A stretch of DNA of 55,646 bases, filler included, from Sanchytrium tribonematis (GCA_018985235.1; 4 parts of 4 records of this genome joined end to end with filler, not necessarily neighbours in it), one strand, 5' to 3'; counted from the whole stretch's first letter, positions 1 through 44,059 are shown. The notes: a model not told the origin generated them from the sequence alone. Made by a program: numbers and translations.

Positions 1-70
1 AAGAAGATGAATAATAAATACCTTTACTGATAATGAGTGATTTGCAAGTGTCCAGTGGCAATACAGAACA
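1..70 (+). repeat. 3' part of 5' LTR
   Basis: Exact copy of 4012-4081, ends ...CAGAACA. Confidence 0.9.
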
Positions 71-3000
71 TACTATTTCGGATTCCGCGCAAAGATGCGT
101 GATTGACTATAAATTTGACCACAAACAGGTTGGATTTACCACTTGGCATTTCGGGTTTTTAAATCTTGCTCGTGCATTAGATGTCCCTGAACATATGTAT
201 TTCCGAGAAATGCTGAAGAATTTACAGCAGGAATACATTAGCTATGCGATGGGAGTCCTTGCAGGACTTGCAAGCTATGAAGGATTTGTAAAGGTGTTGG
301 GTGCGCGATATACAGTTGATTTTCGTGCTGTGGACTTTTACGCATTGAAACAAGGCTCTAAAGGTGTTGAGGAATATGCCGACTATTTGCAAAGATGCGG
401 TAGTATTGCTGGTATTAAAGATCAGGACATTATTGATCATTTCAAGGTGTCATTAAGAGATGAAATTTCTGTAGTATTGATTGCAAGTGAGTTTGGAAAT
501 TGGACAGCTGCTAGAAGAGCAGCTCTTGAAGTTGAAAAAAGATTAGGCAATTCCATGAGCAAGTCCAGTGTTCAAATCCCGGCTGCTTCATCATCTCCAT
601 CTCCATCACCTTTCTGCTTTTATTGCAAAAAGACAGGCCATGTTGCAAAGTACTGCCCCGACAAACCGGCTTTGAGCTGTTCTAAATGTGGAATGAAGGG
701 ACATTTGATTCGAGATTGCCCAAAGAAGGATGTCAACAACATTGAGGTAAAAGAGACAAATTCAGAAGTAAAATTATCTGAAATTTATTTGTCTGTTTGT
801 TTTAATGATCTTCGAACCACTTGCCTCCTCGACACTGGTGCCAATGTATCAATATTAAGTGCCAAAATGGTTGGAAACATGACAAATGTGCAGCTGCAGA
901 AATGCGATTTGGGAGTCTCTTGTGGAGGTGTATTAAAGCAAATCTTAGGAAGAGCATGGGTGAGGGTTGTTCTAAAAGATTTGACGCCCTTTTGGCATTG
1001 GTTTTATGTCTTAGATGGAAATTATCCACTCCATCCAATTATTGGGACTGACATTCTAAATGATCATTTCACCTCCAAATTAGTGATTCAGGAAAAGGAT
1101 TTTGTATTAAACAATGTGGAATATAAAAATGAGATTGAGTCAATTTTGAAACCCAAATTAGCACATTTGGATGAGAAGACATCTTCAATGGTATTGGGAA
1201 TATTCGAGAATTATCATGTGGATCCCCTGAAACCAATCAAAGTTCCTCCAATTGATTTGGAACTGAAAGAAAACGTGGATTTGGAGCAGTTGAGACAGAA
1301 ACCATACCCAGAATCATATCCAGAAGAAAGAGATGAGATTACAGATAAATATATGGCTCGTGGATTCATTAAGAAGGGTGAAAGTCCATTTAGTAGCCCC
1401 TGCTTTATTATTAAACAGAATGGGAAGGCAAGACTAGTCATCGATTATCGAAAGGTCAATACTAATACCAAGCCAAATGGTCTACCCATCCCACGAATTG
1501 ATGATATTGTGCAAGACATTACTGGTTACAAATATGTATCCTGTTTCGATTACGAAACAGGATACAACCAGCTAAGTGTATCAGAGAGAACAGCACAGAT
1601 TACTTCATTTGTTACTGCCAAATCACAATATTTAAATCAACGACTTGGACAAGGATTGCGTATTGGGCCAGGCATATTTCAACATGTTACATCTGAATTG
1701 ACAGCTCATATTGGCAACATCCGCCAGTACATAGACGACATCGCATTATTTCATAATGATCTAGATGAGCATCTGGCAGCAATGGCGGAATTAGTGCGTG
1801 TATGCAGTGAATTTAATATTATTTTAAAATTGAGCAAATGCCAAATAATTCGATCTGAAGTGGAATTCTGCGGATACATGATCTCCCAGCATGGATACAA
1901 GGCCAAGGACAGCTATCTAGTGGAAATCCAGAGCTTGAAATCCCCAGACAGCAAAAGGAAGACTCACAAGATACTTGGCATGTTGTCATGGGTAAAGCCC
2001 TTTATACCTCACTTTGAAGAGGTTGTACAGCCAATAAGAGATGTGATATCTATGAAATCCAAGTTTATATGGTCACCAGCAGCAGAAACAGCTTTGAGAA
2101 ATGCATTGGATTTAGCATCACAGCATCAAATTTCCAACATCAAAAATGGTCCAGATTGTGAGTTGTTTGTTGATGCCAGTAAAGGCAGTATAGGTGGTGC
2201 CATATTCCAGAATGGCATCCTAGTGGGACTGTTTTCTCGTAAATTAAATCGCACCATGCAAAATTGGGATTGTTTTGAAAAAGAATTATACGGTGTTTAC
2301 GTGGGATTGAACAAGTTTGGTAGGTACTTGGGTGGCAACAGGGTTATTATTAGATCAGATAACGAGGCAGCAATCTATTTATTGAATGGTATGGGTAAGA
2401 AGAAGTCCCCCAAAATTCTACGTTGGATCGAATCCATCCAGCTCTATGATTATGATGCATATCACATTTCCGGGGCCAAGAATCAGCTGGCAGATATGTT
2501 GTCTAGATTTGAGCATCGTGAATCCGTAGAGGAGAAGGAGGATCCTCAATTTAGTGTAAATCAAGTGGAAACCAGAAGCAGGAAACGTGCCAGATTGGAA
2601 GAAGAGGCAGCAGAATCTATGGAAGTAGAGCCGACAGTCCAGCAACCAGTGGTGGTGATAGAACCAGTGGTAGAATCAGTGCCAGTTTCTTCTGCTCCAG
2701 TTAATTTGGATACGAATTTGATAAAATGTCATTGTGGAATTCCCAGGCAGGATGATGTTGTTGAATGTACTAATTGTGGTCTATACAGCCATAAATCATG
2801 TATTGCGTGGATGTATACGCCATCTGACTTTTTCTGTGGGCGATGCAATCAATTGCAAAATAAGAGGGGAAATATTCAAAACCGGGATGAACAGATCAAA
2901 TTGCTTCAATCTGCCCATTTGAGTCACCCGGGTAGAAATGCAATGAGGATAATGCTTAGACAGTACCAATGGAATACTAAAGAACAAGATATCAAGGATT

Positions 3001-4025
3001 GTATTGAGAATTGTAGATTTTGTGTGGAGAAAAAGGAGCCAATTATGGCCAAATTACAGCTTAGAAAGCCCAAGAGAGTGAATCACATGTGTGCTATTGA
3101 TTTATTAGAGATTAAGGAAGAGTGTGTGGACTACAGCCATGTAGTTGTGATGCGTGAATACGTGACAGGTGTTTGCGTGCTACATCCAATTCCCAACAAA
3201 TCCCCAGTATATGTATTAGAGGCATTGCTCAAATATTTGGCCAGTTATGGTAAAATGGCAGTGCTAATATGTGACAATGGAACGGAATTCAAGGCTCAAT
3301 TTAAGGAGTATTGTGAAAAAGTGGGTATCCATATGGAATATAGCACGCCAAGAGTGTCACATGAGAATGGATATGCTGAATCAGCTATTAGAGTGGCTAA
3401 ATCTATGATTAGAGTGGCTAGAAAGGAGTTTCCTGAATTACCATTTGAAGTGACAGTTCAGATGGCCAATTTCTGGATTAATTCTAACCCCAAATACAAC
3501 ACAGGGATGTCCCCCACAACATTAATGACAATGATTAATTCCTTTGGGGATGGTTTGGACACAAATATTAGAAATGATTTAATCAAAGAAATCAACAAAA
3601 TGAAGGTAAAACAGGAAATCAGATTTAACAGGGGGTTGAGACATGTAGAAATCAGTGTGGGAGACTCAGTGTGGTATTATCCACCAAATACAAAGCTGAA
3701 ATTGAAAACATTGGCAAAATTAGGAAAAGTCATGGAAATTGTTAGAGAAAAGCAGTATTTAATCCATTTAGAAGGAGAATCCAAATCATTTATTGCACAT
3801 TCAGATGATTTAGTGCCAATTAAAAATGAGATGAATCAGGGGGAATGTTTAGAATTTGGAAATGGAGATGTGAATCATCTCATTTTGAATTGGCAAATGG
3901 ATGGCAACGAGGATGGCAACGAGAGGCGAGAACAAGTAGGAAGTGACCCAGGTGATTGGGTTGATAGAGATGTGAAATTGCCAAATGTGGCAAATAGAGA
4001 ACATAAAAGAGAAGAAGATGAATAA
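33..4025 (+). CDS. Gag-Pol polyprotein (2 CCHC knuckles, aspartic protease, RT, RNase H, PHD finger, integrase)
   Basis: CFYCKKTGHVAKYC, CSKCGMKGHLIRDC, LLDTGA, YIDD, FVDAS/EKEL/RSDN/LADMLS, HLSH..CRFC, IDLL/CDNGTEF/NGYAES. Confidence 0.95.
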   Translation: MSDLQVSSGNTEHTISDSAQRCVIDYKFDHKQVGFTTWHFGFLNLARALDVPEHMYFREMLKNLQQEYISYAMGVLAGLASYEGFVKVLGARYTVDFRAVDFYALKQGSKGVEEYADYLQRCGSIAGIKDQDIIDHFKVSLRDEISVVLIASEFGNWTAARRAALEVEKRLGNSMSKSSVQIPAASSSPSPSPFCFYCKKTGHVAKYCPDKPALSCSKCGMKGHLIRDCPKKDVNNIEVKETNSEVKLSEIYLSVCFNDLRTTCLLDTGANVSILSAKMVGNMTNVQLQKCDLGVSCGGVLKQILGRAWVRVVLKDLTPFWHWFYVLDGNYPLHPIIGTDILNDHFTSKLVIQEKDFVLNNVEYKNEIESILKPKLAHLDEKTSSMVLGIFENYHVDPLKPIKVPPIDLELKENVDLEQLRQKPYPESYPEERDEITDKYMARGFIKKGESPFSSPCFIIKQNGKARLVIDYRKVNTNTKPNGLPIPRIDDIVQDITGYKYVSCFDYETGYNQLSVSERTAQITSFVTAKSQYLNQRLGQGLRIGPGIFQHVTSELTAHIGNIRQYIDDIALFHNDLDEHLAAMAELVRVCSEFNIILKLSKCQIIRSEVEFCGYMISQHGYKAKDSYLVEIQSLKSPDSKRKTHKILGMLSWVKPFIPHFEEVVQPIRDVISMKSKFIWSPAAETALRNALDLASQHQISNIKNGPDCELFVDASKGSIGGAIFQNGILVGLFSRKLNRTMQNWDCFEKELYGVYVGLNKFGRYLGGNRVIIRSDNEAAIYLLNGMGKKKSPKILRWIESIQLYDYDAYHISGAKNQLADMLSRFEHRESVEEKEDPQFSVNQVETRSRKRARLEEEAAESMEVEPTVQQPVVVIEPVVESVPVSSAPVNLDTNLIKCHCGIPRQDDVVECTNCGLYSHKSCIAWMYTPSDFFCGRCNQLQNKRGNIQNRDEQIKLLQSAHLSHPGRNAMRIMLRQYQWNTKEQDIKDCIENCRFCVEKKEPIMAKLQLRKPKRVNHMCAIDLLEIKEECVDYSHVVVMREYVTGVCVLHPIPNKSPVYVLEALLKYLASYGKMAVLICDNGTEFKAQFKEYCEKVGIHMEYSTPRVSHENGYAESAIRVAKSMIRVARKEFPELPFEVTVQMANFWINSNPKYNTGMSPTTLMTMINSFGDGLDTNIRNDLIKEINKMKVKQEIRFNRGLRHVEISVGDSVWYYPPNTKLKLKTLAKLGKVMEIVREKQYLIHLEGESKSFIAHSDDLVPIKNEMNQGECLEFGNGDVNHLILNWQMDGNEDGNERREQVGSDPGDWVDRDVKLPNVANREHKREEDE
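3838..3845 (+). other. Polypurine tract
   Basis: AGGGGGAA immediately before TG of 3' LTR. Confidence 0.75.
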
Positions 4026-4081
4026 TAAATACCTTTACTGATAATGAGTGATTTGCAAGTGTCCAGTGGCAATACAGAACA
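3846..4081 (+). repeat. 3' LTR (~236 bp)
   Basis: TGTT...AACA termini, follows PPT, last 70 nt identical to 1-70; contains GATGGCAACGAG x2 and AATAAA at 4024. Confidence 0.8.
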
Positions 4082-4525
4082 TTACTGGTTGTTTTGATTT
4101 ATTAAAACATCTTTTGTTCCGTTCAAGTAATATCTTAAAAAGTCTTTTTGCCTATTTTCTTCCAAATCTCTTCATTGCCATTTTTGGATCTTTCAATTTC
4201 TTTGCCATTTGCCATGCCATATATCTATTTTGATTATTTAAATACATTAACAGTTCGCGAATTTTAAATTAATACAAATATTCAACTTCATCCAAAGATG
4301 CTCTCAATCCCCCTTTTTCTGTTTCCATATTACATGCATTTGTCACAGCCATGTAATGAAAATTGTAACAAGTGGATCTGTTTTGATCAAAGATACCATG
4401 TAAAATGATTGATTTGTGTGCTTTTATATGTAACGATTGTAGTGATAGGTACATTTTAATAAATAAAAGACGTCTAAAAATTTAAATAAAAAACACGGTG
4501 TGTAATAAAACCAATTATGATACTT

Positions 4526-4834
4526 TCAATTTATTGGTTTTTTTACACGAACAGGAGCTCGATCAATAATAACAGTGCTAAATTGTTTTGAACAATCATA
4601 TTCAGCTTTGAGACAATCTTCATCTTCACATAAAGCATTGCACTTATCCAATTTGTTTTTATCTGGGCTTTCCTGTCGAAGATCATCTCCGTATCTAGTC
4701 TTGCAATTAGCTAATGCTTCAGATTCACAATCAAGTTGATTTTGACAAGATAGACTTTGCCAGACGACACAATTGCTAAATGGAGTCAATGGAGACAAAG
4801 CTGGGATAGCGTAAGAGAACATAATGTAAATCAT
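4526..4834 (-). CDS. Small cysteine-rich putative secreted protein
   Basis: MIYIMFSYAIP leader, 8 Cys, CTCCC motif upstream of ATG; longer ORF extension overlaps 5S and is rejected. Confidence 0.55.
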   Translation of the reverse strand: MIYIMFSYAIPALSPLTPFSNCVVWQSLSCQNQLDCESEALANCKTRYGDDLRQESPDKNKLDKCNALCEDEDCLKAEYDCSKQFSTVIIDRAPVRVKKPIN

Positions 4835-4942
4835 GAACGAAGAAGGGAGTTTTTCTTTAAATTTAACAGTCATTAATTTAAAGCGCCATTTGATTCGTGG
4901 ACTAAATGAGGACGAAATAATAGCAATTGGTAAAAATACAAA

Positions 4943-5060
4943 AGCTACAGCACATGGGATTCCCACCCCGTCTCCGATGGCAGTACTAACCATGCCAGCA
5001 CCTGCTTAACTTCTGAAATTTGACAGGATCAGGTGTTTCCAGGTGTGTATGGCCGTAGCT
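4943..5060 (-). rRNA. 5S rRNA
   Basis: AGCTACGGCCATAC...GAAGTTAAGC...GTTAGTACT...GGGAATCCCATGTGCTGTAGCT then T run; complementary termini, ~118 nt. Confidence 0.92.
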
Positions 5061-5158
5061 GACTTTAAGTTAAGTTACAATACTTGTTTTTTAGATATTG
5101 CCAACCAAGTCGCGTGATAACAGAATAGTTTCGATACATATTCCTGAAAAGTAATTTA

Positions 5159-6209
5159 CTAAACTTCTAAAGCACTTATATGTTTTTGCCAATCCTTGAG
5201 TTTTCCGACAAATAACCCAATGTCTTCTTTTCCTAAAACTTGAGGATATACTCTATCAATGTAAATCATTTGACCAACTTGATCAATTTTTCCTTTCAAA
5301 AGGCCTTGGCCCATTAATCTCATCAGTTGTATTTCTAGATCTGGAACTCTGACCTGTTGCATCAATTGCGAGAATGGAACTTGTTTCGAATTCAATTTGA
5401 ACAAGATTACCAATACAGTCATCAAGTGAAATTTTCGAGTAAGAGCATCCATATGGGAGTTCAATACATTCTAAGTTATTATGAAATACATGCTGGGCTA
5501 TTTTGGGCTTTAATTGCTCGAATTGAGAAAGCTGACCATGTTCAGCAGCTGATATTAAGTCACTCAGCCATTTATCTACATGTTTGAAGACTTCATGTGA
5601 TGTTAATTCTCCAAATCTATAGATATTTCCTAGTAAAGCTGCAATACTCATATTTGTACCCCTACTAACAAGTTCTTCTTTTGATAAATTGGTTGCATAT
5701 TTAAGATACTCAAATGAAGTATTGTAATAAGATTCAAATTCGCCTTTTAGTTGATATACATCTGCTTTCACCTTGTAATATTGTGCATTGACAATTGGTT
5801 CAAAGCTTAGTACTCTAGACATTGTCAATTCCACCTCAGAAAGCAAATTATTAGCAAGTTCAAATTGTTGAAGAGTTTGGTTTTGTTGAATGACCAACAA
5901 CTTGATGTAGACAAAAGCCTGAATTTTGAAGCATGTCCATTTCTTAAAGTCGTCTTCAGTTGGGGTAAATTTTAATAATAAAGGACTTAGAAACGCCAAA
6001 GCATCAGCTGGAGCTTTCAAAAGACAAGTGCGTTGAGCCAAGATTGATAATGATAGTGGGTGAATATTAGACTCCATTGGGTGAACAAATTGAGGGTAAA
6101 GTTGCGGAAGTCGGTCTGGTTGTTTTTCCGAAATATCCAACAGTAACTGCGTCAACTGATGGTATTGTTTGGCTTTTAATAACGATGACAATTGAGATGT
6201 ATCTGCCAT
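5159..6209 (-). CDS. RPN9: 26S proteasome lid subunit Rpn9/PSMD13 (exons 6209-5490, 5470-5159)
   Basis: AALLGNIYRFGEL and PCI tail LMRLMGQGLLKGKIDQV joined by 19-nt intron. Confidence 0.88.
5471..5489 (-). other. 19-nt intron GTATTTCATAATAACTTAG
   Basis: Removal fuses the two Rpn9 frames. Confidence 0.85.
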
Positions 6210-27940: not shown

Positions 27941-28040
27941 NNNNNNNNNNNNNNNNNNNNNNNNNNNNNNNNNNNNNNNNNNNNTTAATTAATTAANNNN
28001 NNNNNNNNNNNNNNNNNNNNNNNNNNNNNNNNNNNNNNNN
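27941..28040. other. Artificial contig spacer
   Basis: N-TTAATTAATTAA-N, 100 nt. Confidence 0.98.
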
Positions 28041-31150: not shown

Positions 31151-31226
31151 ATAATAAATATTGTTTTTAATCAGTGATTCATTTATTTTATAAAATCAAG
31201 CCACATTTCAATATTTCCCCAGAAAC

Positions 31227-31916
31227 ATGAATTTATTCACTGCTGGTCTCATATTCGCGTTTATTATTTGTCATTTATATATATGGTCTACTAAAAAGAC
31301 TAAAATGTATATTTCTATGGCTCATTTACTCCATTTAATATTTATGAGTTTATTTCTCATTTGTGCAGTGGTTGATTCATTAAATGGTCCTTTGAAATCA
31401 ATTATGTTAATTATTGCCAATATAGAATCATTTGAATTACTTTATCCATTTATATTCAAATTAAAAAAGCATATTTTATGGATGATTTTCATTTTTAGTG
31501 TTTTAGAGTGGATTGCAGTTGGTATTTTAGCATTTAAAGGCTTCCAATTAACCAGTTTATCATGCGCACTCGTCTTATCCATATTCATTGATTTATTATA
31601 TACATTTAGACCCATTAAATCTCATGACACGCATGTTAGATTTTTTGCCATGATTAGTGCCGTATTCTGCTTATATCAAATATTTATATTGACAGTGCAT
31701 GGTGAAATGATTATGGAAATGTATATGGTGGTTCAAAGTGGGTTAATTTTGAGTTTGAATTATATTGAAGAATTGCCAATGCGGGGTCCTAAAATACCAT
31801 CTAGTAGTCGACATGTGGAATTAAAAGAGTATCCGAATGAATCTTATGTGAATGTGGATATTCCATCACCTGTGAGTGCCACGAGACGGGGATTTAGGGG
31901 AGACACTGTGGATTAA
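31227..31916 (+). CDS. Multi-pass membrane protein, unknown function
   Basis: ~6-7 hydrophobic segments; TTTCCCC before ATG. Confidence 0.7.
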   Translation: MNLFTAGLIFAFIICHLYIWSTKKTKMYISMAHLLHLIFMSLFLICAVVDSLNGPLKSIMLIIANIESFELLYPFIFKLKKHILWMIFIFSVLEWIAVGILAFKGFQLTSLSCALVLSIFIDLLYTFRPIKSHDTHVRFFAMISAVFCLYQIFILTVHGEMIMEMYMVVQSGLILSLNYIEELPMRGPKIPSSSRHVELKEYPNESYVNVDIPSPVSATRRGFRGDTVD

Positions 31917-31952
31917 AATAAAATTGAGAATTTTACTTATATTTAATTTGCT

Positions 31953-32912
31953 TTATTGAGGTAAATGACTAAAATCGACTTCTGTTTTCATTGAATGTTC
32001 TTGACTTTGTAAAAGATTAGATTGTGCCTCGGCTTCAATTTCTGTGAAACCTGTCGCGTTTCCTTCAATAAGTTCCAAAGGAAGCAAATTTATCACATTT
32101 GGATTGGTTGGTTTAAACGCATTCATAAATGGATCATAAAAGTCACGTGGGAGTAATTTTGAGTATTGTGAACCCAACCCTGGATCATTGAATTCAGCTG
32201 TGATTGATTTTATGGCTTTAATTTGCTTAATCTTATCTGTTGGTCTTTCTAAAAAGAAAACAATTACGAATCTGATCAAAAGTTTAGGAATGCTTCTAAA
32301 ATCATTTTTTAAAACAAACCGAAACAATGCAATCATTACAATTGGATAAATGTTACCTTGTGTAAACCTTTCATCCAACAGATTGAATGATCCAATGACA
32401 CTCGAGACTACCCTATCAATTTCAGTATAATCTGGCCCATACTGTTCTAATTTTACAGATGTGATTTTGTCCAACATATTAGGGATCCATTTGGCCAAAT
32501 AATACATCGAATTAACAGGATAAGCTGCGTCGAGATTAACAATTTGATACTGGTTAAAACCAATTTCAAATAAAGTCGTATAGCGTACTCTAGCGTCATA
32601 GAACGCATTGGCGCAGGAAACTAATGTTAAAAGATCATCAGTTCTTCTCTTTTGATTATAGCGCAAGGAAGATAAGTGTCCAATGGATTCCTGATGCCAA
32701 TTGTCACCGTGTCTATCATTAAAATGTGAAGGTATGTGTTTATAGCCCCTATTAGCAAAGCTACTTTCTAAACCGTGAGACGACTCATTCGATACTGCTT
32801 CCAATGGTGGACGTACTTCGCCTTCATATTGATTATTAGTTTCCTTTTGTGGCGATTCAGTGTATGGTTCATTCAAGTACATTCCAAATACACACAACAA
32901 TGCAAACAACAT
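31953..32912 (-). CDS. Lineage-specific putative secreted protein, family A copy 1
   Basis: MLFALLCVFG leader; homologous to 33754-34485 (FTQ..IY, IP.LL, FF..RP). Confidence 0.75.
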   Translation of the reverse strand: MLFALLCVFGMYLNEPYTESPQKETNNQYEGEVRPPLEAVSNESSHGLESSFANRGYKHIPSHFNDRHGDNWHQESIGHLSSLRYNQKRRTDDLLTLVSCANAFYDARVRYTTLFEIGFNQYQIVNLDAAYPVNSMYYLAKWIPNMLDKITSVKLEQYGPDYTEIDRVVSSVIGSFNLLDERFTQGNIYPIVMIALFRFVLKNDFRSIPKLLIRFVIVFFLERPTDKIKQIKAIKSITAEFNDPGLGSQYSKLLPRDFYDPFMNAFKPTNPNVINLLPLELIEGNATGFTEIEAEAQSNLLQSQEHSMKTEVDFSHLPQ

Positions 32913-33521
32913 GGGGGATGGACATCATGTCTCTTTTATAACAAATGGGGCAACACGTGGTTGTACAAATATACTCCGCTGCTAAATAGTCAAGTCGCAC
33001 ACAGGTGAGTACAACGAATTTGCAAATGGACGCCCCCGAAATGACTCAAACAATCAATCTACTTCCAAAATGTCAAAAATCCATTTATTTGCCCAATTGA
33101 CTCAATCATTTATATAATTCTCTGACTACGACGCTGGTCAACTCGATTCGTATACCTCTAAAGTCATTTAAAATCAAATGGGACCTTAGGTGCGATTGCG
33201 CAATCTATTTTACTAAAATCCTTTATAAAATAGTATTCTTTTATTTATTAAGTTATGATTGTTTTCGGTGGTCATTTTGCAGTTTAAAATAGGCAATGAT
33301 TTTGTAAAATCCATTTAATAGCTCTATTAGTTTCTGTCATCAATTTGCTACTATAATTCCTATGGAACATGTGGTTGTACATGATTTACAATTTGAAATT
33401 TGATTGGCAAAATCCCAATTTTTTTGACAATTAATGTAATCAATAGATTATGAAAATAGAAAGAATCAGATCATTCTTTAGTCAATTGGATTGTTAGTAT
33501 TCATTAAATTTCCACATATAT

Positions 33522-33719
33522 TTATTCATTTTTATAACGCCACTGTTGATAACGATCTTCAACCCAGTTCTCCACAAAAACATTCTCAATTTGAATTAAA
33601 CCAGTGAATGGATCATCAAATTGTGTTTGTGGGAGATAAACACATCCTACGGCCCATGTTTTCCAATTGCTACCATATAATTTTGTAAAATATGTGATGG
33701 ATCCATCTTGTTGACCTCT
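33522..33719 (-). pseudogene. Start-less 3' coding fragment (RGQQDGSITY...WVEDRYQQWRYKNE*)
   Basis: 66 open codons, protein-like, stop overlapping AATAAA, no ATG. Confidence 0.4.
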
Positions 33720-33753
33720 ATTTTTATTTGTTATTGTTAAATTAAAAATAAGT

Positions 33754-34485
33754 TTATTGATCCATTAAGAGCATGATTCCTAAAACTTCTGATGGAAGCC
33801 ATGACTTGACTCTATTTTTTCGAAAATAATCTCTAGTAGTGTCGTTATCTACTTTTTTCAAATCATTATTATACTCATTTAAATCATCTGATTCCCATTG
33901 AGTCATTGTTTCACAATACTGATTTACAACTTCATTTACCACATTCACCTGATCAATACCTTTGTGAGGACGATTGATGAAAAACTTGTACATGAAATCT
34001 AAAAGAAGATTTGGAATTTTTCGATAATTGGAACCATTAATTACATTAACAAAAATAAGGCTCATTAATTTATAGTAGATTCCATCTTGGGTAAACATGC
34101 CACCCAATCTTAAAATACTGGTTAAAGTATAAGCTCCAATGAAATGATGGATTTTGTAGTGTTCTTCTGATTTTGTAAAATCAGACCCTCTGAATTGTTG
34201 TAATAACGATTGTGCGAATTGTGATCCGTAATAGAATGCATTGACTATCCAGCCAGGATCTTTATTTAAAAACTCTGGCCTTGGGTTTCCCAGCATATTC
34301 ATGTAATCTCTTTTTCTGTCTTCTTCTAAAACTGGACTCATATCTAAGGACAATAGATTATTGGTGTATGTTCTTTCATCCTGTTTTATTTTGATATCCC
34401 GCTGCTCGGATAGACTGAGTGATCTTTGAGTGCTTTTGACAGTACCATGATGCATCCCAAATACACACAACAATGCAAACAACAT
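33754..34485 (-). CDS. Lineage-specific putative secreted protein, family A copy 2
   Basis: Same MLFALLCVFGM leader, CCCC directly before ATG at 34485. Confidence 0.75.
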   Translation of the reverse strand: MLFALLCVFGMHHGTVKSTQRSLSLSEQRDIKIKQDERTYTNNLLSLDMSPVLEEDRKRDYMNMLGNPRPEFLNKDPGWIVNAFYYGSQFAQSLLQQFRGSDFTKSEEHYKIHHFIGAYTLTSILRLGGMFTQDGIYYKLMSLIFVNVINGSNYRKIPNLLLDFMYKFFINRPHKGIDQVNVVNEVVNQYCETMTQWESDDLNEYNNDLKKVDNDTTRDYFRKNRVKSWLPSEVLGIMLLMDQ

Positions 34486-34554
34486 GGGGAGGGTACTGTC
34501 AGTCTCTTTTATGATAAATTGGGGAAGCACGTGGTCACACCAAAACACTCCTGT

Positions 34555-34976
34555 CGTACAATTTTAGAATCATCAAATGGATCAAAAACTTTATTCCAGA
34601 TCAGCCAAATTTGAGCATATTTCTGCATCGGATCTCATTTCACAATGTCAATGGATCACCGATAATTTAAACTCACCCCAAATAGATTTCCATTTTGTTA
34701 AAGCACACTCAAATAACATCCTAAATAATTTTGTGGACTCGCTTCGTAATGTTAGTCTAGATCTTTTATTACCAGTGCCATTACAATTGGTTACACATTT
34801 AAAGAAAAACGAATCAGTCAGCTTCTAAGAAAACGGAAGCTTTTGAGCAATTTATTTATATTTTAACTGAGATCCAATCATTTTCTCATACTATACAACA
34901 TCGTATAGATCTACTGCGCCAAAAAACTTGATTTCATCTCCACCCAAAGAACCTTGTTCTTTTTAACAAAAAAAAA
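34555..34976 (+). mobile_element. Non-LTR retrotransposon-like relic (RNase H fragment + 3' end with A-tail)
   Basis: IDFHFVKAHSNNILNNFVDSL RNase H C-terminal motif; 34811-34976 repeated at 44199-44432; ends in A run. Confidence 0.6.
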
Positions 34977-35078
34977 GGACGCCCACAAATGACAAAATGA
35001 TCAAATAGAGGATCAAGTACTACTCAGTTTTGGCGAATATGTCAAATAACTCATTCAAATTGCAATTATTTATTAAAT

Positions 35079-35473
35079 TCACCCATAATTCAATCTGAAA
35101 ATATCATTTAATACGTAAAATCCTTCTCCTTCAGCCACCAAATTAAACACTTGTGCAAATTTCAATGGATTTGCATTATCATCTACTAATAATTGACCAG
35201 TCACCTAAATTAATTTAAATTTACACTAACTAGAATATAACCACCATCTGGATGAGATGGCTGTGCATCAATACTCTCTACTTTATGTTGCACTTTTTGA
35301 AATGGCAAATTGGTTAATTTTTCAGCGATTAATGCGGCACTTTGCGTATGATTGCCTTCAAAACTTAACATTGAGAAATCTCTATATAGTCCTTGTAAAT
35401 TGGATCTATTGGTGTCGAATGTTTGGTAGTAATAATTTACAAATTCTTTGGCAACTGCGTCAAAGTTGGACAT
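35079..35473 (-). CDS. NTF2: Nuclear transport factor 2 (exons 35473-35225, 35204-35079)
   Basis: [10 protein letters not shown]; spliced [12 protein letters not shown]...NDIFRLNYG*. Confidence 0.95.
35205..35224 (-). other. 20-nt intron GTAAATTTAAATTAATTTAG
   Basis: Restores NTF2 C-terminus. Confidence 0.92.
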
Positions 35474-35526
35474 GGTTTCAAAAAATATTAGAAGTTTCTA
35501 GAAGTTGCGAAATGGGTAATTTTATT

Positions 35527-35916
35527 TTAAGAGCTCCCTTGGTTGTTATCGTCGCCAGAGTCATTTAAATCAGGATCATTTGAGTCTGCTGAAGTATCTG
35601 TTGAGGGTTCTTGTGGATCTGCTGATGGTTCTGTAATGGCTGAATCTTTTAATGGATCCACTGTAGAATTCCAATTAGTAGATGTATCTGTCAAATTACC
35701 ACTACCTAATCCACCTGCTAATGAATTATCTGACTCACCTAACCCTGACAGTGCAGAATCTTTAGAATCGACTGTCTCGCCTTTCCCATCAGATGGCAAT
35801 CCATCCGTAAATGTATCTGGTTGATCAGCTGCCAATCCAATTGAAGAATGTATATCTCCATCTTCATTCTGGTTATTCATTTGTGGAATGGCAAATAAGA
35901 GTGTCAAGTAAATCAT
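35527..35916 (-). CDS. Acidic Asp/Ser-rich low-complexity putative secreted protein
   Basis: MIYLTLLFAIP leader then D/S/G/N-rich. Confidence 0.7.
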   Translation of the reverse strand: MIYLTLLFAIPQMNNQNEDGDIHSSIGLAADQPDTFTDGLPSDGKGETVDSKDSALSGLGESDNSLAGGLGSGNLTDTSTNWNSTVDPLKDSAITEPSADPQEPSTDTSADSNDPDLNDSGDDNNQGSS

Positions 35917-36139
35917 ATTTTAAATGGGATATTTGGGTTTAAATATCTCAAAAGAGTGATTCACAGATTGTATGAGACATCTCAGACAGACTCAGATGGT
36001 TCCAGACAATCTATTTGACTCTCTTGTCTGAAATGTGTCTGTGAATTCACAATCTTGTTTTAGTGCCAATCAAATTAAAGTGCGCAAATTAACAGACCTG
36101 GTAATGACTTGTGATATTACCGCAGAATGTGGAATTGGT

Positions 36140-36952
36140 TTATTTATAATTGAACATTTGAGATACTTTAACTTCCAATTTGCGAAATATTGTCAAGTAT
36201 TCACTTGGTAATTGCAAACAAGTAATGCTCACAGCACGTCGTTGTGGGGAATAAGTTGCTTGTTCTCTCATTCCCAATGATCCATGAATCGTAGAATCAT
36301 TAAAAAAGACACCTTGACCATGTTTCATATTTTCATAGTAATAAACTCTATTTTGTGACTGCATTTTAGAAACCAAAGATAATGGATATTCTGTAATGTC
36401 ATTTCCAACATTCACCCAATATGTGTATGAATTCACCACTTCATACATATTTAAATCCCATATATAATCCCTATCCTCATCTGTGAGTTTGTTCAAGACC
36501 TCGGGTGGAAATATATCTTCCAAAATAATTTTGGACAGTGTCTCGAAATCTTGGTGCATATCTGCTGGTGTCCAATTGACATTCAGTTGAAATACATTAA
36601 ATTCGTGACACAACAAGTCTAATCCCCACTTTTCCATAATTAAAGCCTCAATGGATTTCATAAATCCCAATTTTTGTGAACCAGTCTTGTATTTGATAAA
36701 TATTTTAAAGTTTTCCACAATTTTGAATCCGTTTAATTTTAAATTCTTTATATTTTTAAATTCTTCAAGAAGATTCTCCTCCAATTTATCAGTTACAAAT
36801 TCAAATCCATCTTCTTTCAACTTAAATTCGTTTGTATCACATTTGTAAATTTCAGTAATTTTAGTCATTTTTAATGGAAATTTAACAAGTGGCGTCAAAT
36901 ATTCATTAGTACTTGGTCTACATTCACCATAAATCAAGAATGGTAATAGCAT
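36140..36952 (-). CDS. Divergent AsaB/CmcJ/NvfI-like Fe(II)/2OG oxygenase
   Basis: FKLKEDGF, HQD, YWVNV..ITEYPL, YYYENM..GVFF...HGS, RRAV; alternative start 36985. Confidence 0.5.
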   Translation of the reverse strand: MLLPFLIYGECRPSTNEYLTPLVKFPLKMTKITEIYKCDTNEFKLKEDGFEFVTDKLEENLLEEFKNIKNLKLNGFKIVENFKIFIKYKTGSQKLGFMKSIEALIMEKWGLDLLCHEFNVFQLNVNWTPADMHQDFETLSKIILEDIFPPEVLNKLTDEDRDYIWDLNMYEVVNSYTYWVNVGNDITEYPLSLVSKMQSQNRVYYYENMKHGQGVFFNDSTIHGSLGMREQATYSPQRRAVSITCLQLPSEYLTIFRKLEVKVSQMFNYK

Positions 36953-37078
36953 GTCATTGAATTGGAATACAGTTATTAAATACATTTATGGTAACACGCC
37001 AAATTACACAAGTCACACACAAAGTTACACACTGTTTGACAAAGAGTCGCACAAATTACACAATTCAATTCAATGCAA

Positions 37079-37997
37079 TTATGCAGATTTATTAACCAAA
37101 TCAAAGGGGGGTCGAATAGTTCCTTGAAAAAACCCATGTGTCAATGCTTCTCTAGCACCAATCCGCAATTCTGGCTGTACACTCAATAATTTACCCAATA
37201 AATCCAATCCCAATACATCCAATGGGACTACACTTGAAATACTCCTAACGGGTAAATTGGGCATATTTTGCATCATGGAGTGATATTCTGGTAATTGGGT
37301 TAATCCTGGCCAAATAGTCTCATTGGGGGTACCAAATAAATGGAATATACGTAATAATTGATCCTGATTGTTCTTTCCTGGGAATAATGGCCTTTTAATC
37401 ACCATTTCTGCTAAAATACAGCCAATACTAAATGAAATTAAAATACCTCCAAATATCAATGGTAGTCGTGTAATTTCGACTACCTAGGAGCACATCTGGT
37501 GATCTGTACCATAATGTGACTACTTCATGGCTAAATGTGTTGACGGGAATGCCAAATGCCCTAGCTAATCCGAAATCACCAATTTTGAGCCATCCTTGAT
37601 TTGTTAACAGGATATTTTGTGGTTTTAAATCTCTGTGGAGTATACGTTGTTGATGGCAATATGCAATACCATCCATTAATTGAAAAGTAAATGATTTGAT
37701 CATATCTGTCGTCAAAGTCATTAAATCCATACATTTCTTTAAATCTAAATCCATAAATTCAAAGACTAATAAAAGAATAGATTCTGTATGAACGACTTCA
37801 ATTAATGATAGGATATTTGGATGGTTTAATTCTTTCATTAATGAGATTTCACGGATGGCAGTGGATGGGGCACCTTCTTCAGGATCTAAAGTGATTTCTT
37901 TTAAGGCACAAATTTGATTGGTGTGGATGTTGATGGCTTTGGTGACGATGGCATAAGTGCCTTCACCTAATTTTTCTAATCTGCGATAGTTTTGCAT
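37079..37997 (-). CDS. PHO85: PHO85-like cyclin-dependent kinase (exons 37997-37447, 37427-37079)
   Basis: [24 protein letters not shown], spliced [12 protein letters not shown]. Confidence 0.85.
37428..37446 (-). other. 19-nt intron GTATTTTAATTTCATTTAG
   Basis: Restores kinase subdomain IX DIWSIGC. Confidence 0.93.
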
Positions 37998-38025
37998 GAA
38001 GAGACTGGGGTGTTTTAAAAATTAT

Positions 38026-39078
38026 TTATTTGCGTTTTTTGAATCGCATTTGTCCTGGCATCATACCTGGTGCGCCCATGCCTGGTGCCATTCCCATTCC
38101 CATGGCTGGATTGCCCATTTGATTCTGCATCATTGGATTCATGGGTTGTGCTGGAAAAGGTTGTTGCATGCCTACAGGCCCTGCTACTTGTGGTGGTCGT
38201 GGTGTATTTCTGAATAAAGTGGCTGCTAATACACCTAATGTGCCTAATATACCAGCAGCAGCAACAAATGGGAGGGCACCTGATCCACTGCCATGATGAG
38301 ATTCTACTCCGTGGGTCACAGCACTTTGCGCCCTTTCAGCAGCACCTTCAGCAGTACTAGTTGCTGAGCCACTTCTACGGAATGGATTCCAGCTTCTTCC
38401 TGAAGGTGTTGTCGATTGTGTTTGCGACTGACCATGTTGAAATTTAGGTTGATAATAATGATTGTTTTGTTTGTTAAGACCAGCTATTTGCTGTTGCAAT
38501 TCATTTGTATGTTTACTACCATAATATTCTGATGGTTTCATCAGTTGATTTATATTAAATGATTCAGTTTTGGAAGCCTTAAAAGATTCAGCATTATCTT
38601 GAATAGCCTTAATGACTTGAGCTTCATCCACATCATTGCCACTAATCAAATTGAATAAATCTGATTGATATTTTAATCCATACGCTTGAAGATCCATTTT
38701 ATATGCATTTTCTTTTGTGGCTTGTGATGCTGGAAATTCAAATTTTGGAACCGGTTTAAATTCCCCAGTTTCTTGATTATACTCATAAATGAAATTTCGA
38801 TCGAGATGTCTTGCGTTGTATTTTATGACTTGTAGTCGAGTTGCATCACTCGTTCTAAATTCTTTCAAAATATCATCAGCGGATCTCGTATGTAATTCAT
38901 TAAATCTTGTACGAATAAAGTTTTTAAATCCTTCATTGGCATCAGTATTTGGAAATTCGCTATTGTATTTGTGAAGCAGTTGTTGCAATTTGTTACGCTG
39001 TTCTAGATCAGCAGGTGCTGGAACATCATCAAAGATATGTTCTAATTTAATAGCTAATAAACAAAAATAAAATAACAT
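38026..39078 (-). CDS. Putative type I membrane protein with Pro/Gly/Met/Gln-rich tail
   Basis: MLFYFCLLA leader; TM LPFVAAAGILGTLGVLAATLF. Confidence 0.7.
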   Translation of the reverse strand: MLFYFCLLAIKLEHIFDDVPAPADLEQRNKLQQLLHKYNSEFPNTDANEGFKNFIRTRFNELHTRSADDILKEFRTSDATRLQVIKYNARHLDRNFIYEYNQETGEFKPVPKFEFPASQATKENAYKMDLQAYGLKYQSDLFNLISGNDVDEAQVIKAIQDNAESFKASKTESFNINQLMKPSEYYGSKHTNELQQQIAGLNKQNNHYYQPKFQHGQSQTQSTTPSGRSWNPFRRSGSATSTAEGAAERAQSAVTHGVESHHGSGSGALPFVAAAGILGTLGVLAATLFRNTPRPPQVAGPVGMQQPFPAQPMNPMMQNQMGNPAMGMGMAPGMGAPGMMPGQMRFKKRK

Positions 39079-39296
39079 GTTGTATGGGATATCCTTTTGA
39101 TTTTGTATGATTGTGATTGTATTTGTGAGAGACTCCTTGTTGTACAAATCCAATCAGATTGGATGTGGGGTGATACAGAGTGGGGACAAGTTTGAAACAG
39201 TGTGACAATTGGGTACAATGTATGACAATGGGATTTGATGGAACTAGAGAGATTTGGATGATTTGAAAATATAGCAAGTGATGATCATAAGTTTAT

Positions 39297-40316
39297 TCAA
39301 ACTCGTGGTTCTACTTTTGGTTTGCCATCTCCTTCGACTTTACCACTTGGGACTCCTTCACCCTCACCTGGGACAAAAAAATCAGCTGGTGGCACTTCGT
39401 TCAGAGGTCCAACTTCACCCACCTGAACTGTTCTTGTATCTGGTCGATTTTCTGCGGCGCTTGCAGCATTTACGGCACGAGTAAGAGCATCAATATCAAG
39501 TGTATCAATTCTACCTGTTACTGGTTCAACTCTATCACTTGATGAAATTAATCCTTTTTCTTGCAATTTTTTGACTCCGGCTTCAAACACCTTCCAAAAA
39601 GGCTCTCTTATTATTTTATCAAAGAAAACCTTACCAACCACTGCAACAAGAATCGGACTCGAAACTGCTCCTATTGCTGAAACCGCTGCAATAAATGCGA
39701 CGCCAGTGATACAAACTTTTACAGACATGATTGCTTTTTTGGTTGGTGATAAATCTTTAAATGTTTGCAAAGCCGATTTCGTCTGTAAATTTGCAGAAAT
39801 ATAGATGCTTTTTGCTTTTTGAAGACTAGTAAGATCAGATTCAGATGAATTGTCTTCTGAGGTTGGTTGCTGTTCGTGCGTTTTCGAATCTGCTTCTTCA
39901 ATCGCTTCTTTTAGTGCTTGTGATACTTGTTTGTTCGTGAGCATATCTCGAATAGATTCTTGAAACTCTGAATTGCTCAGCCAACGGAGCAATTCAACTT
40001 GAGATTCACTTAATTCTGAAGCTTGATTCGAATCTATATTCGTAGATCTAAAACTTGCTTCCAAACTCTCTTCAGGAATGGTGAACAAAGGATATTTCTC
40101 CAAATAAGATCTCACTGCCTCTAAATTATCTTTACCTGCAACCGATAACAAGCGTCTTAAATTTTCTTCTTGTTCTGCCGCCATTTTCTTTGCTTCTTCA
40201 GAACTGGGTAATGTTTCTAATGATAAAACATTAACCGAAGATTGTGATGGTGTTCGTAACAAGCCACTTAACCCTTTTAGTATTGGTGGTAATGCAAAGA
40301 CAGTCAACCATAACAT
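39297..40316 (-). CDS. Putative secreted/membrane protein, family B
   Basis: MLWLTVFALPP leader, long hydrophobic segment, PGEGEG tail. Confidence 0.7.
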   Translation of the reverse strand: MLWLTVFALPPILKGLSGLLRTPSQSSVNVLSLETLPSSEEAKKMAAEQEENLRRLLSVAGKDNLEAVRSYLEKYPLFTIPEESLEASFRSTNIDSNQASELSESQVELLRWLSNSEFQESIRDMLTNKQVSQALKEAIEEADSKTHEQQPTSEDNSSESDLTSLQKAKSIYISANLQTKSALQTFKDLSPTKKAIMSVKVCITGVAFIAAVSAIGAVSSPILVAVVGKVFFDKIIREPFWKVFEAGVKKLQEKGLISSSDRVEPVTGRIDTLDIDALTRAVNAASAAENRPDTRTVQVGEVGPLNEVPPADFFVPGEGEGVPSGKVEGDGKPKVEPRV

Positions 40317-40468
40317 TTTGTCTCTTGGTCTCTCTCTCTTTTAACTTGCAACACAGTACTGTGTCATTTATTTCCCCCAATCACAGTCTTAAATTACGTC
40401 TATTTTGAAATGAATCTCATAAAGACACAGACTGTGCTGCAAAATAGCGAATTTACCCCAAACATCAT

Positions 40469-40564
40469 TTATTCAATTTTAACTGTCCCTTCTCCTTCTC
40501 CTGGTCCCTCGTTTGTGCCAGTAGTATCAATGCCATCGATACCATCTATTGAAATAGCTGGATC
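40469..40564 (-). pseudogene. 3' remnant of a family B paralogue (DPAISIDGIDGIDTTGTNEGPGEGEGTVKIE*)
   Basis: Near-identical to 40826-40864; PGEGEG shared with 39297 tail. Confidence 0.65.
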
Positions 40565-40747
40565 CCGCTTTTGGTGGTTATACGACTTAATCAAGTTGAA
40601 ACCTATCTAAAAAATCACCTGGAGCTTCATTTGGAAATAATCCTATTAGGTGGTTCAATGGTGATGATAATAGATTATCAAGATATTTTCTTGGATCATC
40701 ACAAGAAGATTGGAAACAAATTTGAAATATTTAAATATTGAATATTT

Positions 40748-41530
40748 TTATTTAATAAATCTAAATCTTGGTTCTGCTTCTGTGAATCCACTATCTGATC
40801 CACCTCGTTCCCCACCTGCTTCTCCATCAATGCCATCAATACCATCTATTGAAATAGCTGGATCTGCGGGTGGCGTATATTTTGGATCTGTAATTGGAAA
40901 ATCAGGCTGTTCATTTACCCCAGTACCCTCTGAATGTCCATCTTTACCTACATTGGCAACTGCATCACCCATTTCATGAAATGCATCTGGTTTTATTGGA
41001 GTATCAACAACATTATTGGAATGCGTTGAAACCAAATTTGAAAATGATTTCCAAATGGGTTTTTTCATCATGTATTCAACTAATGAGCTTATTACATTGC
41101 CTGGTAATTTCAGCAAATATCTCAATCCTTTGACAAATAATTTAGCAGTAGCAATGGTGCGCTGACGTGTTGTTTGAGATTGTAATTTTTCGTAATATTG
41201 TTTTTGTGCTGCTAAAAAATCAGGTGATAATTCTCCGTCATAATAAGTTGTTAAAGTAGATAGAACATCTTGATCCCCAAAAAGTTCAAGGGTGACTTGT
41301 TCTTCTGCTGTTTCATCACCTTCTGGAATGGATTCTAATTTATCAATATTCAATGCACCTTGTTTTAACAATAAAATTCCTTCTAAAATAGATGGATGTA
41401 GCTGTTGAGCCATTGGTCCTTGCGCATTTAACAGATCTAATGGGCTCTCTTTGATACGTCTTACTTTTGGATGTCTTTGAAGTGATGGTTTCACAAATGG
41501 AATGGCAAATAGAAGTGAATGAAGAATCAT
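40748..41530 (-). CDS. Putative secreted protein, family B
   Basis: MILHSLLFAIP leader; KPIWKSF resembles REPFWKVF of 39297 gene; SIDGIDGID tail. Confidence 0.7.
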   Translation of the reverse strand: MILHSLLFAIPFVKPSLQRHPKVRRIKESPLDLLNAQGPMAQQLHPSILEGILLLKQGALNIDKLESIPEGDETAEEQVTLELFGDQDVLSTLTTYYDGELSPDFLAAQKQYYEKLQSQTTRQRTIATAKLFVKGLRYLLKLPGNVISSLVEYMMKKPIWKSFSNLVSTHSNNVVDTPIKPDAFHEMGDAVANVGKDGHSEGTGVNEQPDFPITDPKYTPPADPAISIDGIDGIDGEAGGERGGSDSGFTEAEPRFRFIK

Positions 41531-41719
41531 TTGAATGCCATGGGAGCGCATTGCTCCTTTTATGGATTGACACAGAGAATCAAAATATATGTCACGAATC
41601 ACAGCATCAGAATGAAATGACACAGGATTTGACTGCAAAACTGATTATGGGAGAGAGTCAGACCCATTTGACTGCCATTAGAATAGAAATGGGAGAGATG
41701 TTTGAAAAAATATATTTGT

Positions 41720-41794
41720 TTATTTGACCATTGCTCTGACTGGAGTTCTCTCTGTTTTCCCAACACCATCTCTAATACCTGGTACCTCTAATCC
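41720..41794 (-). CDS. 3' end of a gene cut by contig end (…GLEVPGIRDGVGKTERTPVRAMVK*)
   Basis: 25 open codons, stop overlapping AATAAA. Confidence 0.4.
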   Translation of the reverse strand, partial: GLEVPGIRDGVGKTERTPVRAMVK

Positions 41795-41894
41795 NNNNNN
41801 NNNNNNNNNNNNNNNNNNNNNNNNNNNNNNNNNNNNNNTTAATTAATTAANNNNNNNNNNNNNNNNNNNNNNNNNNNNNNNNNNNNNNNNNNNN
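41795..41894. other. Artificial contig spacer
   Basis: N-TTAATTAATTAA-N, 100 nt. Confidence 0.98.
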
Positions 41895-41950
41895 TTCAAA
41901 CATGTTGGGTGTTTGAGGGAGCATTTGGCGAAGATACAATTTTGATTTAT

Positions 41951-43306: not shown

Positions 43307-43353
43307 ACTTATTTATTCAATACATTTGCCAAAATACCCCTGAAACCACAAAA

Positions 43354-44052: not shown

Positions 44053-44059
44053 ATGACAT

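What the first reader, a model, noticed from the sequence alone, without database searches (positions are those of the whole stretch)
2721..2846. PHD finger inserted between RNase H and integrase of a Gypsy element
Seen: IKCHCG-IPRQDDVVECTNCGLYSHKSC-IAWMYTPSDFFCGRC, a complete C4HC3 PHD pattern. It follows a basic NLS-like RSRKRAR and an acidic/Pro linker and directly precedes the integrase HHCC. There is no C-terminal chromodomain. Known: chromoviruses target chromatin via a C-terminal chromodomain; PHD fingers read H3 tails and occur in Bel/Pao Gag and some non-LTR elements. Inference: an N-terminal PHD-integrase may be an alternative histone-mark targeting module, valuable in a genome with almost no intergenic space.
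Basis: partly seen in the sequence, partly recalled or inferred. Interest (0 to 1): 0.72.

Follow-up and report, generated by a model that had tools for sequence, protein, structure and literature searches.

The report
Fungal Gypsy clade with PHD-led integrase
An intact jumping gene, probably of a small-genome parasitic fungus, carries a PHD zinc finger just ahead of its integrase, as do its closest relatives; the finger likely docks the insertion enzyme on histone tails, but neither binding nor targeting is shown, and a green-algal element already has the same layout.

Summary
Observation confirmed. 2721-2846 encodes a C4HC3 PHD finger, in frame between RNase H and the integrase HHCC of an intact single-ORF Ty3/Gypsy element with no chromodomain. 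It is not a one-off. 9 of the 150 best relatives carry the finger at the same place, and PHD-bearing elements form one clade on RT-RH and on the integrase core. Named members are all from the sanchytrid fungus Sanchytrium tribonematis; others are unnamed ENA records. All eight zinc ligands are invariant in 11 aligned fingers. A motif repeated at the three domain borders suggests the finger begins the mature integrase. It belongs to the Set3/MLL5/ASH1L class (H3K4me2/3 readers), but this copy has Tyr and Val where those readers have Trp and Met, and two sister families have lost the aromatic. The RH-PHD-IN order is already published for Chlamydomonas Gypsy-7a_cRei, with a different PHD type, so this looks like an independent capture. 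Earlier scan notes found PHD-integrase fusions on other DNA (C-terminal Gypsy, Copia), none of this clade. Histone tethering is the likeliest role (about 50%), untested; the 5S neighbour is no evidence. New variant of a known kind.

The parts
1..70 (+). 3' end of the 5' LTR (cut by the window start); holds the likely start codon at 33
   Evidence: 71 of 71 bases identical to 4012-4082; ORF and ATG seen in the sequence
71..90 (+). primer-binding-site position; no TGG; codes T-I-S-D
   Evidence: T-I-S-D/E near the N-terminus of 4 of 4 full-length clade polyproteins
33..4025 (+). single Gag-Pol ORF, 1330 aa, no stop or frameshift, running into the 3' LTR
615..719 (+). two CCHC zinc knuckles of Gag
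   Evidence: Pfam zf-CCHC above cut-off, 2 stretches; coordinates
825..842 (+). aspartic protease motif LLDTGA
   Evidence: (weak Pfam matches)
1413..1883 (+). reverse transcriptase (YIDD at 1728)
   Evidence: Pfam RVT_1 E 1.2e-22
2070..2507 (+). RNase H
   Evidence: Pfam RT_RNaseH E 1.6e-15, RT_RNaseH_2 E 5.7e-10; end motif at 2487
2553..2570 (+). inferred RT-RH/integrase protease site (V-N-Q-V); like motifs at 729-746 and 1104-1121
   Evidence: motif at all three borders in 4 of 5 long clade members, 4-5 of 5000 shuffles each; cleavage itself inferred
2574..2594 (+). basic patch RSRKRAR, candidate nuclear localisation signal
   Evidence: 4-5 K/R of 7 in 10 of 11 proteins examined, including the PHD-less sisters; function inferred
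2595..2720 (+). acidic Val/Pro linker, 42 aa, poorly conserved
   Evidence: (no Pfam)
2721..2846 (+). C4HC3 PHD finger of the Set3/MLL5/ASH1L/PHF20/PHF23 type
2916..3023 (+). integrase HHCC zinc-binding domain
   Evidence: Pfam Integrase_H2C2 26.3 bits, cut-off 25.5
3093..3386 (+). integrase core, D1023-D1081-(35)-E1116 intact
   Evidence: Pfam rve 34.4 bits, cut-off 32.6; spacing
3645..3821 (+). integrase C-terminal segment, SH3-like by eye; no GPY/F motif, no chromodomain
   Evidence: the SH3-like label is my reading, Pfam gave no SH3 match
3839..3845 (+). polypurine tract
3846..4081 (+). 3' LTR, 236 bases, TG...CA
   Evidence: a contig junction at 3846 in run X1
4942..5060 (-). 5S rRNA gene (neighbour, not part of the element)
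   Evidence: Rfam RF00001 90.5 bits

Best explanation
The stretch is a PHD zinc finger kept by a whole clade of Ty3/Gypsy elements, predicted to form the N-terminus of the mature integrase, where it likely tethers the integration complex to histone H3 tails. Shown: sequence, position, conservation, clade, PHD class. Inferred: (1) the element's protease cuts at V-N-Q-V after RNase H and releases NLS-linker-PHD-HHCC-core-tail as one protein; (2) the clade's ancestor captured a Set3/MLL5/ASH1L-type reader of methylated H3K4; (3) tethering on H3K4-marked nucleosomes would bias insertion to the open DNA beside gene starts, the main non-coding space in a gene-dense genome; (4) in this copy the Tyr/Val pocket probably binds the tail more weakly or with less regard to the methyl state than the Trp/Met pocket of P0129/P0131.
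For: In-frame, complete C4HC3 in an intact element with identical LTR ends. 9 of the 150 best hits of a whole-library search have the finger just ahead of the HHCC, 2 more begin inside it; 0 of 122 generic Gypsy hits do. PHD elements are one clade on regions that exclude the finger: RT-RH support 97, integrase core 98. 8 ligands plus the core Phe are the only invariant columns in 11 fingers that are 26-45% identical between families. A diverged sister copy has 6 synonymous and 3 replacement codons in the finger, none at a ligand, against 7 and 7 in the linker. Family profile matches ASH1L, PHF23, Set3, PHF20, MLL5 PHDs at E 2.5e-10 to 1.6e-6; P0131 matches Set3 PHD at 6.6e-9 with Trp kept. An aromatic stands at pocket position I in 9 of 12 fingers. 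The border motif precedes the finger in 4 of 5 long members. Gypsy-7a_cRei, with the same order, inserted between genes 2.6 times more often than chance (PMC9940879; authors leave targeting or selection open).
Against: No binding or insertion-site data. This copy has Tyr918 at position I, Val909 at II and Thr913 where readers have Asp; position I is Cys in P0130 and Gly in P0137/P0276, an apparently intact 1303-aa member, so methyl-lysine reading cannot be the conserved function of the whole clade; a Trp-to-Ala change there abolishes H3K4me2 binding in DUET (PMC4562639). Trp is present in only 3 of 12 fingers, all one subfamily. This copy is below the Pfam cut-off and the fold Z of 6.0 is middling. 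Sister elements P0143, P0174, P0140 do without the finger. The border motif was chosen after seeing it, and P0128 lacks it at the third border. Only one flank of one insertion is visible and it faces the 3' end of a small ORF. Trees are quick searches with long branches.
Confidence: 0.5

Rival explanations
1. The finger is functional but does not read a histone mark: it is a zinc-stabilised module that binds a host protein, nucleic acid or another integrase subunit, filling the place of an N-terminal extension domain.
For: Ligands and core Phe invariant while pocket position I varies W/Y/C/G and II varies M/L/V/F/P; intact P0276 has Gly at position I; Hop1, a close PHD type, did not discriminate H3K4 methylation states in vitro (PMC12365614).
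Against: The closest solved relatives are H3K4me2/3 readers; the ENA subfamily keeps Trp, Met and Asp together; Tyr recurs at position I in five lineages.
Confidence: 0.28
2. A once-useful reader now decaying in the sanchytrid families: only the fold is kept, to avoid misfolding the polyprotein, and it no longer affects where copies land.
For: Pocket residues are lost in the branch holding this copy, P0130, P0137/P0276 and P0156; low Pfam score; PHD-less sisters exist.
Against: No deletion of the finger in any clade member whose region is held, although the flanking linkers vary freely in length; excess of synonymous change in the sister copy.
Confidence: 0.12
3. The finger acts outside integration: it stays on RT-RH or is cut free, or it helps the new copy's expression or escape from silencing after insertion.
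For: Cleavage sites are inferred only; authors propose chromatin remodelling roles for TE PHD fingers (PMC9940879, PMC8557442).
Against: The border motif lies before the finger and none lies between finger and HHCC in the window protein; only 23 residues separate the two.
Confidence: 0.1

Closest known systems
Gypsy-7a_cRei of Chlamydomonas reinhardtii (Craig et al., PMC9940879; section on TEs, Fig. 6 legend and supplement parts 282-283 read; figure not seen)
   Same: Gypsy polyprotein with a PHD finger between the end of RNase H and the integrase HHCC (legend order; confirmed by my by-eye translation of the library sequence); targeting proposed, not shown.
   Different: Its finger starts C-x2-C, ends C-x2-H and has a long spacer of another PHD type, and it sits in long low-complexity linkers far from the HHCC; here C-x-C start, Set3/MLL5 type, 23 residues from the HHCC. 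15.4 kb with 2 kb LTRs and a TGG primer site, against about 4.2 kb, 236-base LTRs and no TGG. RT relationship not tested.
Chromoviruses (Ty3/Gypsy with a C-terminal chromodomain, e.g. MAGGY; as summarised in PMC6673714 and bioRxiv 2021.11.30.470311, passages)
   Same: A chromatin-reader domain fused to a Gypsy integrase.
   Different: Reader is a PHD, at the N-terminal side; no chromodomain or GPY/F; apart from the six chromodomain-bearing rows in the RT-RH tree; the finger's class reads an active mark, not H3K9me.
Host PHD fingers of Set3, MLL5, ASH1L, PHF20, PHF23 and Hop1 (PDB 5tdw, 4l58, 7y0i, 5tab, 6wxk, 9myp)
   Same: C-x-C start, ligand spacing, fold, small hydrophobic residue at pocket position III.
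   Different: Position I Tyr not Trp, position II Val not Met/Thr, shorter first loop without Gly in this copy.
Other PHD-carrying mobile elements: Ginger1-9_HM (C-terminal PHD, PMC2836005), Chlamys Penelope-like elements (PMC8557442), cnidarian retrotransposon-PYGO PHD fusions (bioRxiv 2021.11.30.470311), CR1/Jockey ORF1 (PMC4120745, listing only)
   Same: Repeated capture of PHD fingers by transposons.
   Different: Other element classes or other positions; none of the passages read describes a fungal Gypsy clade with this order.

Membership tests
PHD finger | Cys4-His-Cys3 ligands with PHD spacing | tested here: met
   invariant in 11 of 11 aligned fingers
PHD finger | Pfam PF00628 above the curated cut-off (24 bits) | tested here: inconclusive
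   this copy 14-16 bits over the whole model; P0129 26.6 and P0131 27.2 bits pass; P0126, P0128, P0134, P0156 match below cut-off
PHD finger | PHD fold | tested here: met
   model pLDDT 74; best VIA match ASH1L PHD Z 6.0, rmsd 2.6, 50 of 54 aligned; the first 18 rows are PHD-containing chains; Foldseek probability 1.00 for ASH1L, PHF13, PHF20 but E about 0.05. Z is middling for the library.
PHD finger | binds two zinc ions in cross-brace | not testable with these tools
   model coordinates not available; needs experiment
H3K4me2/3-reading PHD (Set3/MLL5/ASH1L/PHF20 type) | pocket position I tryptophan (PMC12365614) | tested here: not met
   Tyr918 here; W in 3, Y in 6, C in 1, G in 2 of 12 clade fingers
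H3K4me2/3-reading PHD (Set3/MLL5/ASH1L/PHF20 type) | pocket position II methionine (Thr in Set3, Leu in some Hop1) | tested here: not met
   Val909 here; M in 5 of 12, all ENA members
H3K4me2/3-reading PHD (Set3/MLL5/ASH1L/PHF20 type) | position III small hydrophobic, position IV acidic | tested here: inconclusive
   Ile897 fits III; Asp907/908 could be IV but the loop is one residue short; positions assigned by me from alignments
H3K4me2/3-reading PHD (Set3/MLL5/ASH1L/PHF20 type) | binds methylated H3K4 peptide | not testable with these tools
   no binding data
Ty3/Gypsy LTR retrotransposon | domain order Gag-PR-RT-RH-IN | tested here: met
Ty3/Gypsy LTR retrotransposon | LTRs with TG...CA, polypurine tract, D-D(35)E | tested here: met
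   the 5' LTR start lies outside the window
Ty3/Gypsy LTR retrotransposon | primer-binding site for a tRNA 3' end, or self-priming | tested here: inconclusive
   no TGG after the LTR; no duplex with its own LTR or the 5S better than shuffles; host tRNAs not available
Ty3/Gypsy LTR retrotransposon | target-site duplication | not testable with these tools
   left junction outside the window, no genome held
Chromovirus | chromodomain at the integrase C-terminus | tested here: not met
   no Chromo match in the window's C-terminus or in 14 relatives, several of them fragments
Chromovirus | GPY/F motif; RT groups with chromodomain-bearing elements | tested here: not met
   no GP[YF] after the core in 8 of 8 proteins examined; separate from the 6 chromodomain rows; named chromovirus references were not in the tree
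Gypsy-7a_cRei type (RH-PHD-IN) | PHD between RNase H and HHCC | tested here: met
   for the window; for Gypsy-7a_cRei, by eye
Gypsy-7a_cRei type (RH-PHD-IN) | same PHD type, implying one capture | tested here: not met
   ligand spacing differs (C-x-C...C-x2-C against C-x2-C...C-x2-H); by-eye reading, no alignment run
Gypsy-7a_cRei type (RH-PHD-IN) | RT in one clade with Gypsy-7a_cRei | not tested
   its protein was not among the sequences that the tools held

The most novel reading that the evidence does not exclude
An undescribed, deeply diverged Gypsy clade of early-branching fungi is the active-chromatin counterpart of chromoviruses: its integrase begins with a captured Set3/MLL5-type reader that steers insertions to H3K4-methylated promoter edges, and the six or more families living in one 11-Mb genome have retuned the pocket (Trp, Tyr, Cys, Gly) to different chromatin targets.
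Probability: 0.2. Interest if true: 0.75.

Novelty: new variant of a known kind. Interest (0 to 1): 0.46.

Why it matters
PHD fingers are common passengers of transposons, and the papers I read only propose that they guide insertion. This clade gives a clean test: a 4.2-kb intact single-ORF element, PHD-less sister elements, and a natural series of pocket variants (Trp/Met, Tyr/Met, Tyr/Val, Gly). With Gypsy-7a_cRei it shows at least two probably independent captures of different PHD types into the same slot ahead of the integrase, which argues that the slot is useful. If tethering holds, it is a self-encoded route to promoter-side insertion in a genome with about one gene per 1.2 kb, and a compact reader-integrase fusion of interest for steering vectors. 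If not, it is one more accessory domain.

Tried and rejected
Chance pattern: rejected. Recent private capture by this copy: rejected, the finger is clade-wide. RING or other zinc finger: Pfam gave similar weak scores to RING-like and ribbon models, but ligand order, PDB matches and relatives favour PHD. 5S or Pol III targeting: one site, on the 3' side of the gene, 860 bases off, with an ORF between; no support. Self-priming or 5S priming: duplex energies no better than shuffles, 292 and 158 of 300 as low. Word-index protein searches missed the clade: one search gave 3 generic hits, one search gave 119 listed generic hits at 32% identity or less, looked only at proteins of 2282-5000 aa and gave 1 generic hit. 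Locus searches: none in viral contigs (72 candidates); 1 of 262 candidates in metagenome contigs, a lone PHD ORF with no RT or integrase beside it, so no second insertion site was seen. ESM Atlas: no usable hit; a second query did not complete. No RNA holder listed. No genome held. The careful RT-RH tree did not finish; the quick one is used. No complex prediction was run: no histone sequence was in hand and methyl marks cannot be modelled. Paper searches found no description of this clade; PMC8371127 has no passage on transposons; PMC5890265, PMC5408684, PMC3118150, PMC3286476, PMC10799480 gave nothing relevant. Repbase, GyDB, the Craig 2021 thesis and the supplementary table of 823 TE-chromatin fusions of bioRxiv 2021.11.30.470311 were not seen and may hold further RH-PHD-IN cases.

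Full report
The observation. The window starts inside a Ty3/Gypsy element. One ORF, 33-4025, encodes Gag with two zinc knuckles, protease, RT, RNase H and integrase without a break. The last 71 bases of the 5' LTR match 4012-4082 exactly; the 3' LTR is 236 bases, TG...CA, after a purine tract; the catalytic D-D(35)E is intact. The copy looks young, on a short LTR comparison. At 2721-2846 lies a complete C4HC3 finger, after RSRKRAR and an acidic linker and 23 residues before the HHCC. A loose PHD pattern arose in 0 of 20,000 shuffles. Pfam PF00628 aligns over its whole length but scores 14-16 bits against a cut-off of 24. The best PDB sequence match is the PHF23 PHD, E 5.9e-6. A model of the finger (pLDDT 74) matches PHD fingers first, best ASH1L Z 6.0, rmsd 2.6 over 50 residues, a middling score; Foldseek on a PHD+HHCC model also ranks PHD fingers first, with E about 0.05. 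No chromodomain or GPY/F was found.

It is a clade feature. Word-index searches found only distant Gypsy proteins (32% identity or less), and 0 of those 122 has the pattern. A whole-library HMMER search with the RH-to-core region gave 19,906 hits, of which the best 150 were examined: 9 carry a full finger just ahead of the HHCC (P0125, 126, 128, 129, 130, 131, 134, 137, 156), 141 do not, and two of those 141 (P0135, P0145) begin inside its last cysteine pair. Six of the nine also show the RNase H end before the finger; three start in the linker. Cluster members P0275 and P0276 add two more. Named members are all EukProt proteins of Sanchytrium tribonematis (P0125, 126, 130, 133, 135, 137, 138, 156, 276); P0128, 129, 131, 134, 145 are unnamed ENA records. 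P0125 is 85% identical to the window protein, so the host is probably this sanchytrid or a close relative (inference). That species has 11.2 Mb and 9,638 proteins (PMC8371127, passages); ORFs of 100 codons or more cover about 82% of the window. By sequence the named members fall into at least six lineages, the ENA ones into four (my count). On regions that exclude the finger, PHD-bearing elements form one group: support 97 on RT-RH (67 of 226 eligible rows) and 98 on the integrase core (best 40 of 184 rows); both are quick trees with long branches and no named reference clades. The nearest rows, P0143, P0174 and P0140, keep the basic patch and linker but have no finger, which fits one gain in the clade's ancestor.

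It is under constraint. In 11 aligned fingers the only invariant columns are the eight ligands and the Phe before the seventh, at 26-45% identity between families. A diverged, 5'-truncated sister contig in run X1 has 6 synonymous and 3 replacement codons in the covered part of the finger, none at a ligand, against 7 and 7 in the linker (26 of its 31 differences were listed); my ratio of replacement to silent rates is about 0.16 against about 0.4, on small numbers. P0125 shows the same replacements, so the two count once. X1 may be the source of the window and is no independent support.

Which protein carries it. A motif [VIL]-N-x-[VIL] occurs four times in the polyprotein, three of them at the Gag/PR, PR/RT and RH/IN borders. 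It marks all three borders in 4 of 5 long members (4-5 of 5,000 shuffles each) and two of three in P0128. I picked the motif after seeing it, and cleavage is inferred. If it is the protease site, the mature integrase begins with the basic patch, then linker, PHD and HHCC.

What it may bind. The family profile matches ASH1L, PHF23, Set3, PHF20, Hop1 and MLL5 PHDs best among PHD entries; P0131 matches Set3 at E 6.6e-9. In these H3K4me2/3 readers pocket position I is Trp, II mostly Met, III small hydrophobic, IV acidic (PMC12365614, passages), and Trp-to-Ala abolishes binding in DUET (PMC4562639, passages). Among 12 clade fingers position I is W in 3 (one ENA subfamily), Y in 6, C in 1, G in 2; position II is M in 5. 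This copy has Tyr918, Val909, Ile897 and a possible acidic IV. So the clade probably began with a methyl-H3K4 reader; this copy keeps an aromatic but not the canonical pocket, and two families have lost it.

How it likely works. After processing, the basic patch would bring the integration complex into the nucleus and the finger would hold it on H3 tails near gene starts, so that insertion falls in neighbouring open DNA (0.5). Rivals: a non-histone binding or structural module (0.28), a decaying relic (0.12), a role outside integration (0.1). No insertion data bear on this: only the right flank is visible, it faces the 3' end of a 102-codon ORF, and the 5S gene lies beyond that. No second locus was found.

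What is known. PHD fingers are widespread in transposons (PMC6673714, PMC8557442, PMC2836005, bioRxiv 2021.11.30.470311; passages). The RH-PHD-INT order is given for Chlamydomonas Gypsy-7a_cRei (PMC9940879 and its preprint; TE section and legend). I checked it by eye in the paper's repeat library: RNase H end, then a PHD, then the HHCC. That finger has another ligand spacing and sits in long linkers, so a separate capture is likely; I could not place its RT in a tree. Ten paper searches found no account of the sanchytrid clade, but Repbase, GyDB and some supplements were not seen. Earlier scan notes report PHD fingers at the C-terminus of Gypsy integrases and in Copia elements on other DNA, none like this sequence; I did not test them.

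Verdict. Real, conserved, clade-wide, and a probable second capture into a slot already described once. New variant of a known kind; interest 0.46.

Noticed in passing
window 71-90: No TGG primer site follows the 5' LTR; the stretch codes T-I-S-D, and T-I-S-D/E lies near the N-terminus of 4 of 4 full-length clade polyproteins but not P0143. It may be a conserved, unusual primer site inside the Gag frame. No self-priming duplex found. A likeness of its complement to the 5' end of a cytoplasmic tRNA is recalled and untested.
   Followed up: partly
window 3814-3895: A 25-base inverted repeat, 92% complementary, encloses the polypurine tract and the LTR start.
   Followed up: no
window 3840-4025: The ORF runs through the purine tract into the 3' LTR; the junction codes G-E-C, and G-E/D-C recurs at this place in P0128, P0131, P0133, P0135 and P0276. 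A fourth border-like motif just after it could trim the tail.
   Followed up: no
window 4526-4834 (-): A 102-codon Cys-rich ORF with a hydrophobic start lies between the element and the 5S gene; no Pfam match.
   Followed up: partly
window 4801-5200: Summed contig depth over the 5S gene is 545-690 against 73 on single-copy DNA, and one contig joint suggests a tandem unit of about 181 bases; depth is not a copy number.
   Followed up: no
proteins P0030, P0037, P0043, P0057, P0063, P0077, P0086, P0094, P0097, P0101, P0103, P0105, P0111: 13 unrelated Gypsy hits carry a 430-470 aa insert in the same RH-to-HHCC slot, with a second aspartic protease domain (Pfam match in P0030 and P0043; 3 scanned) and a segment that looks OTU-like by eye (no Pfam match).
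   Followed up: partly
window 31194-46547: A run of short, mostly minus-strand ORFs with signal-peptide-like starts and no likeness that I recognised, possibly secreted proteins of a parasite; not scanned.
   Followed up: no
window 13924-14023, 27941-28040, 41795-41894: Three scaffold gaps (paired runs of N), so the window is a scaffold.
   Followed up: no
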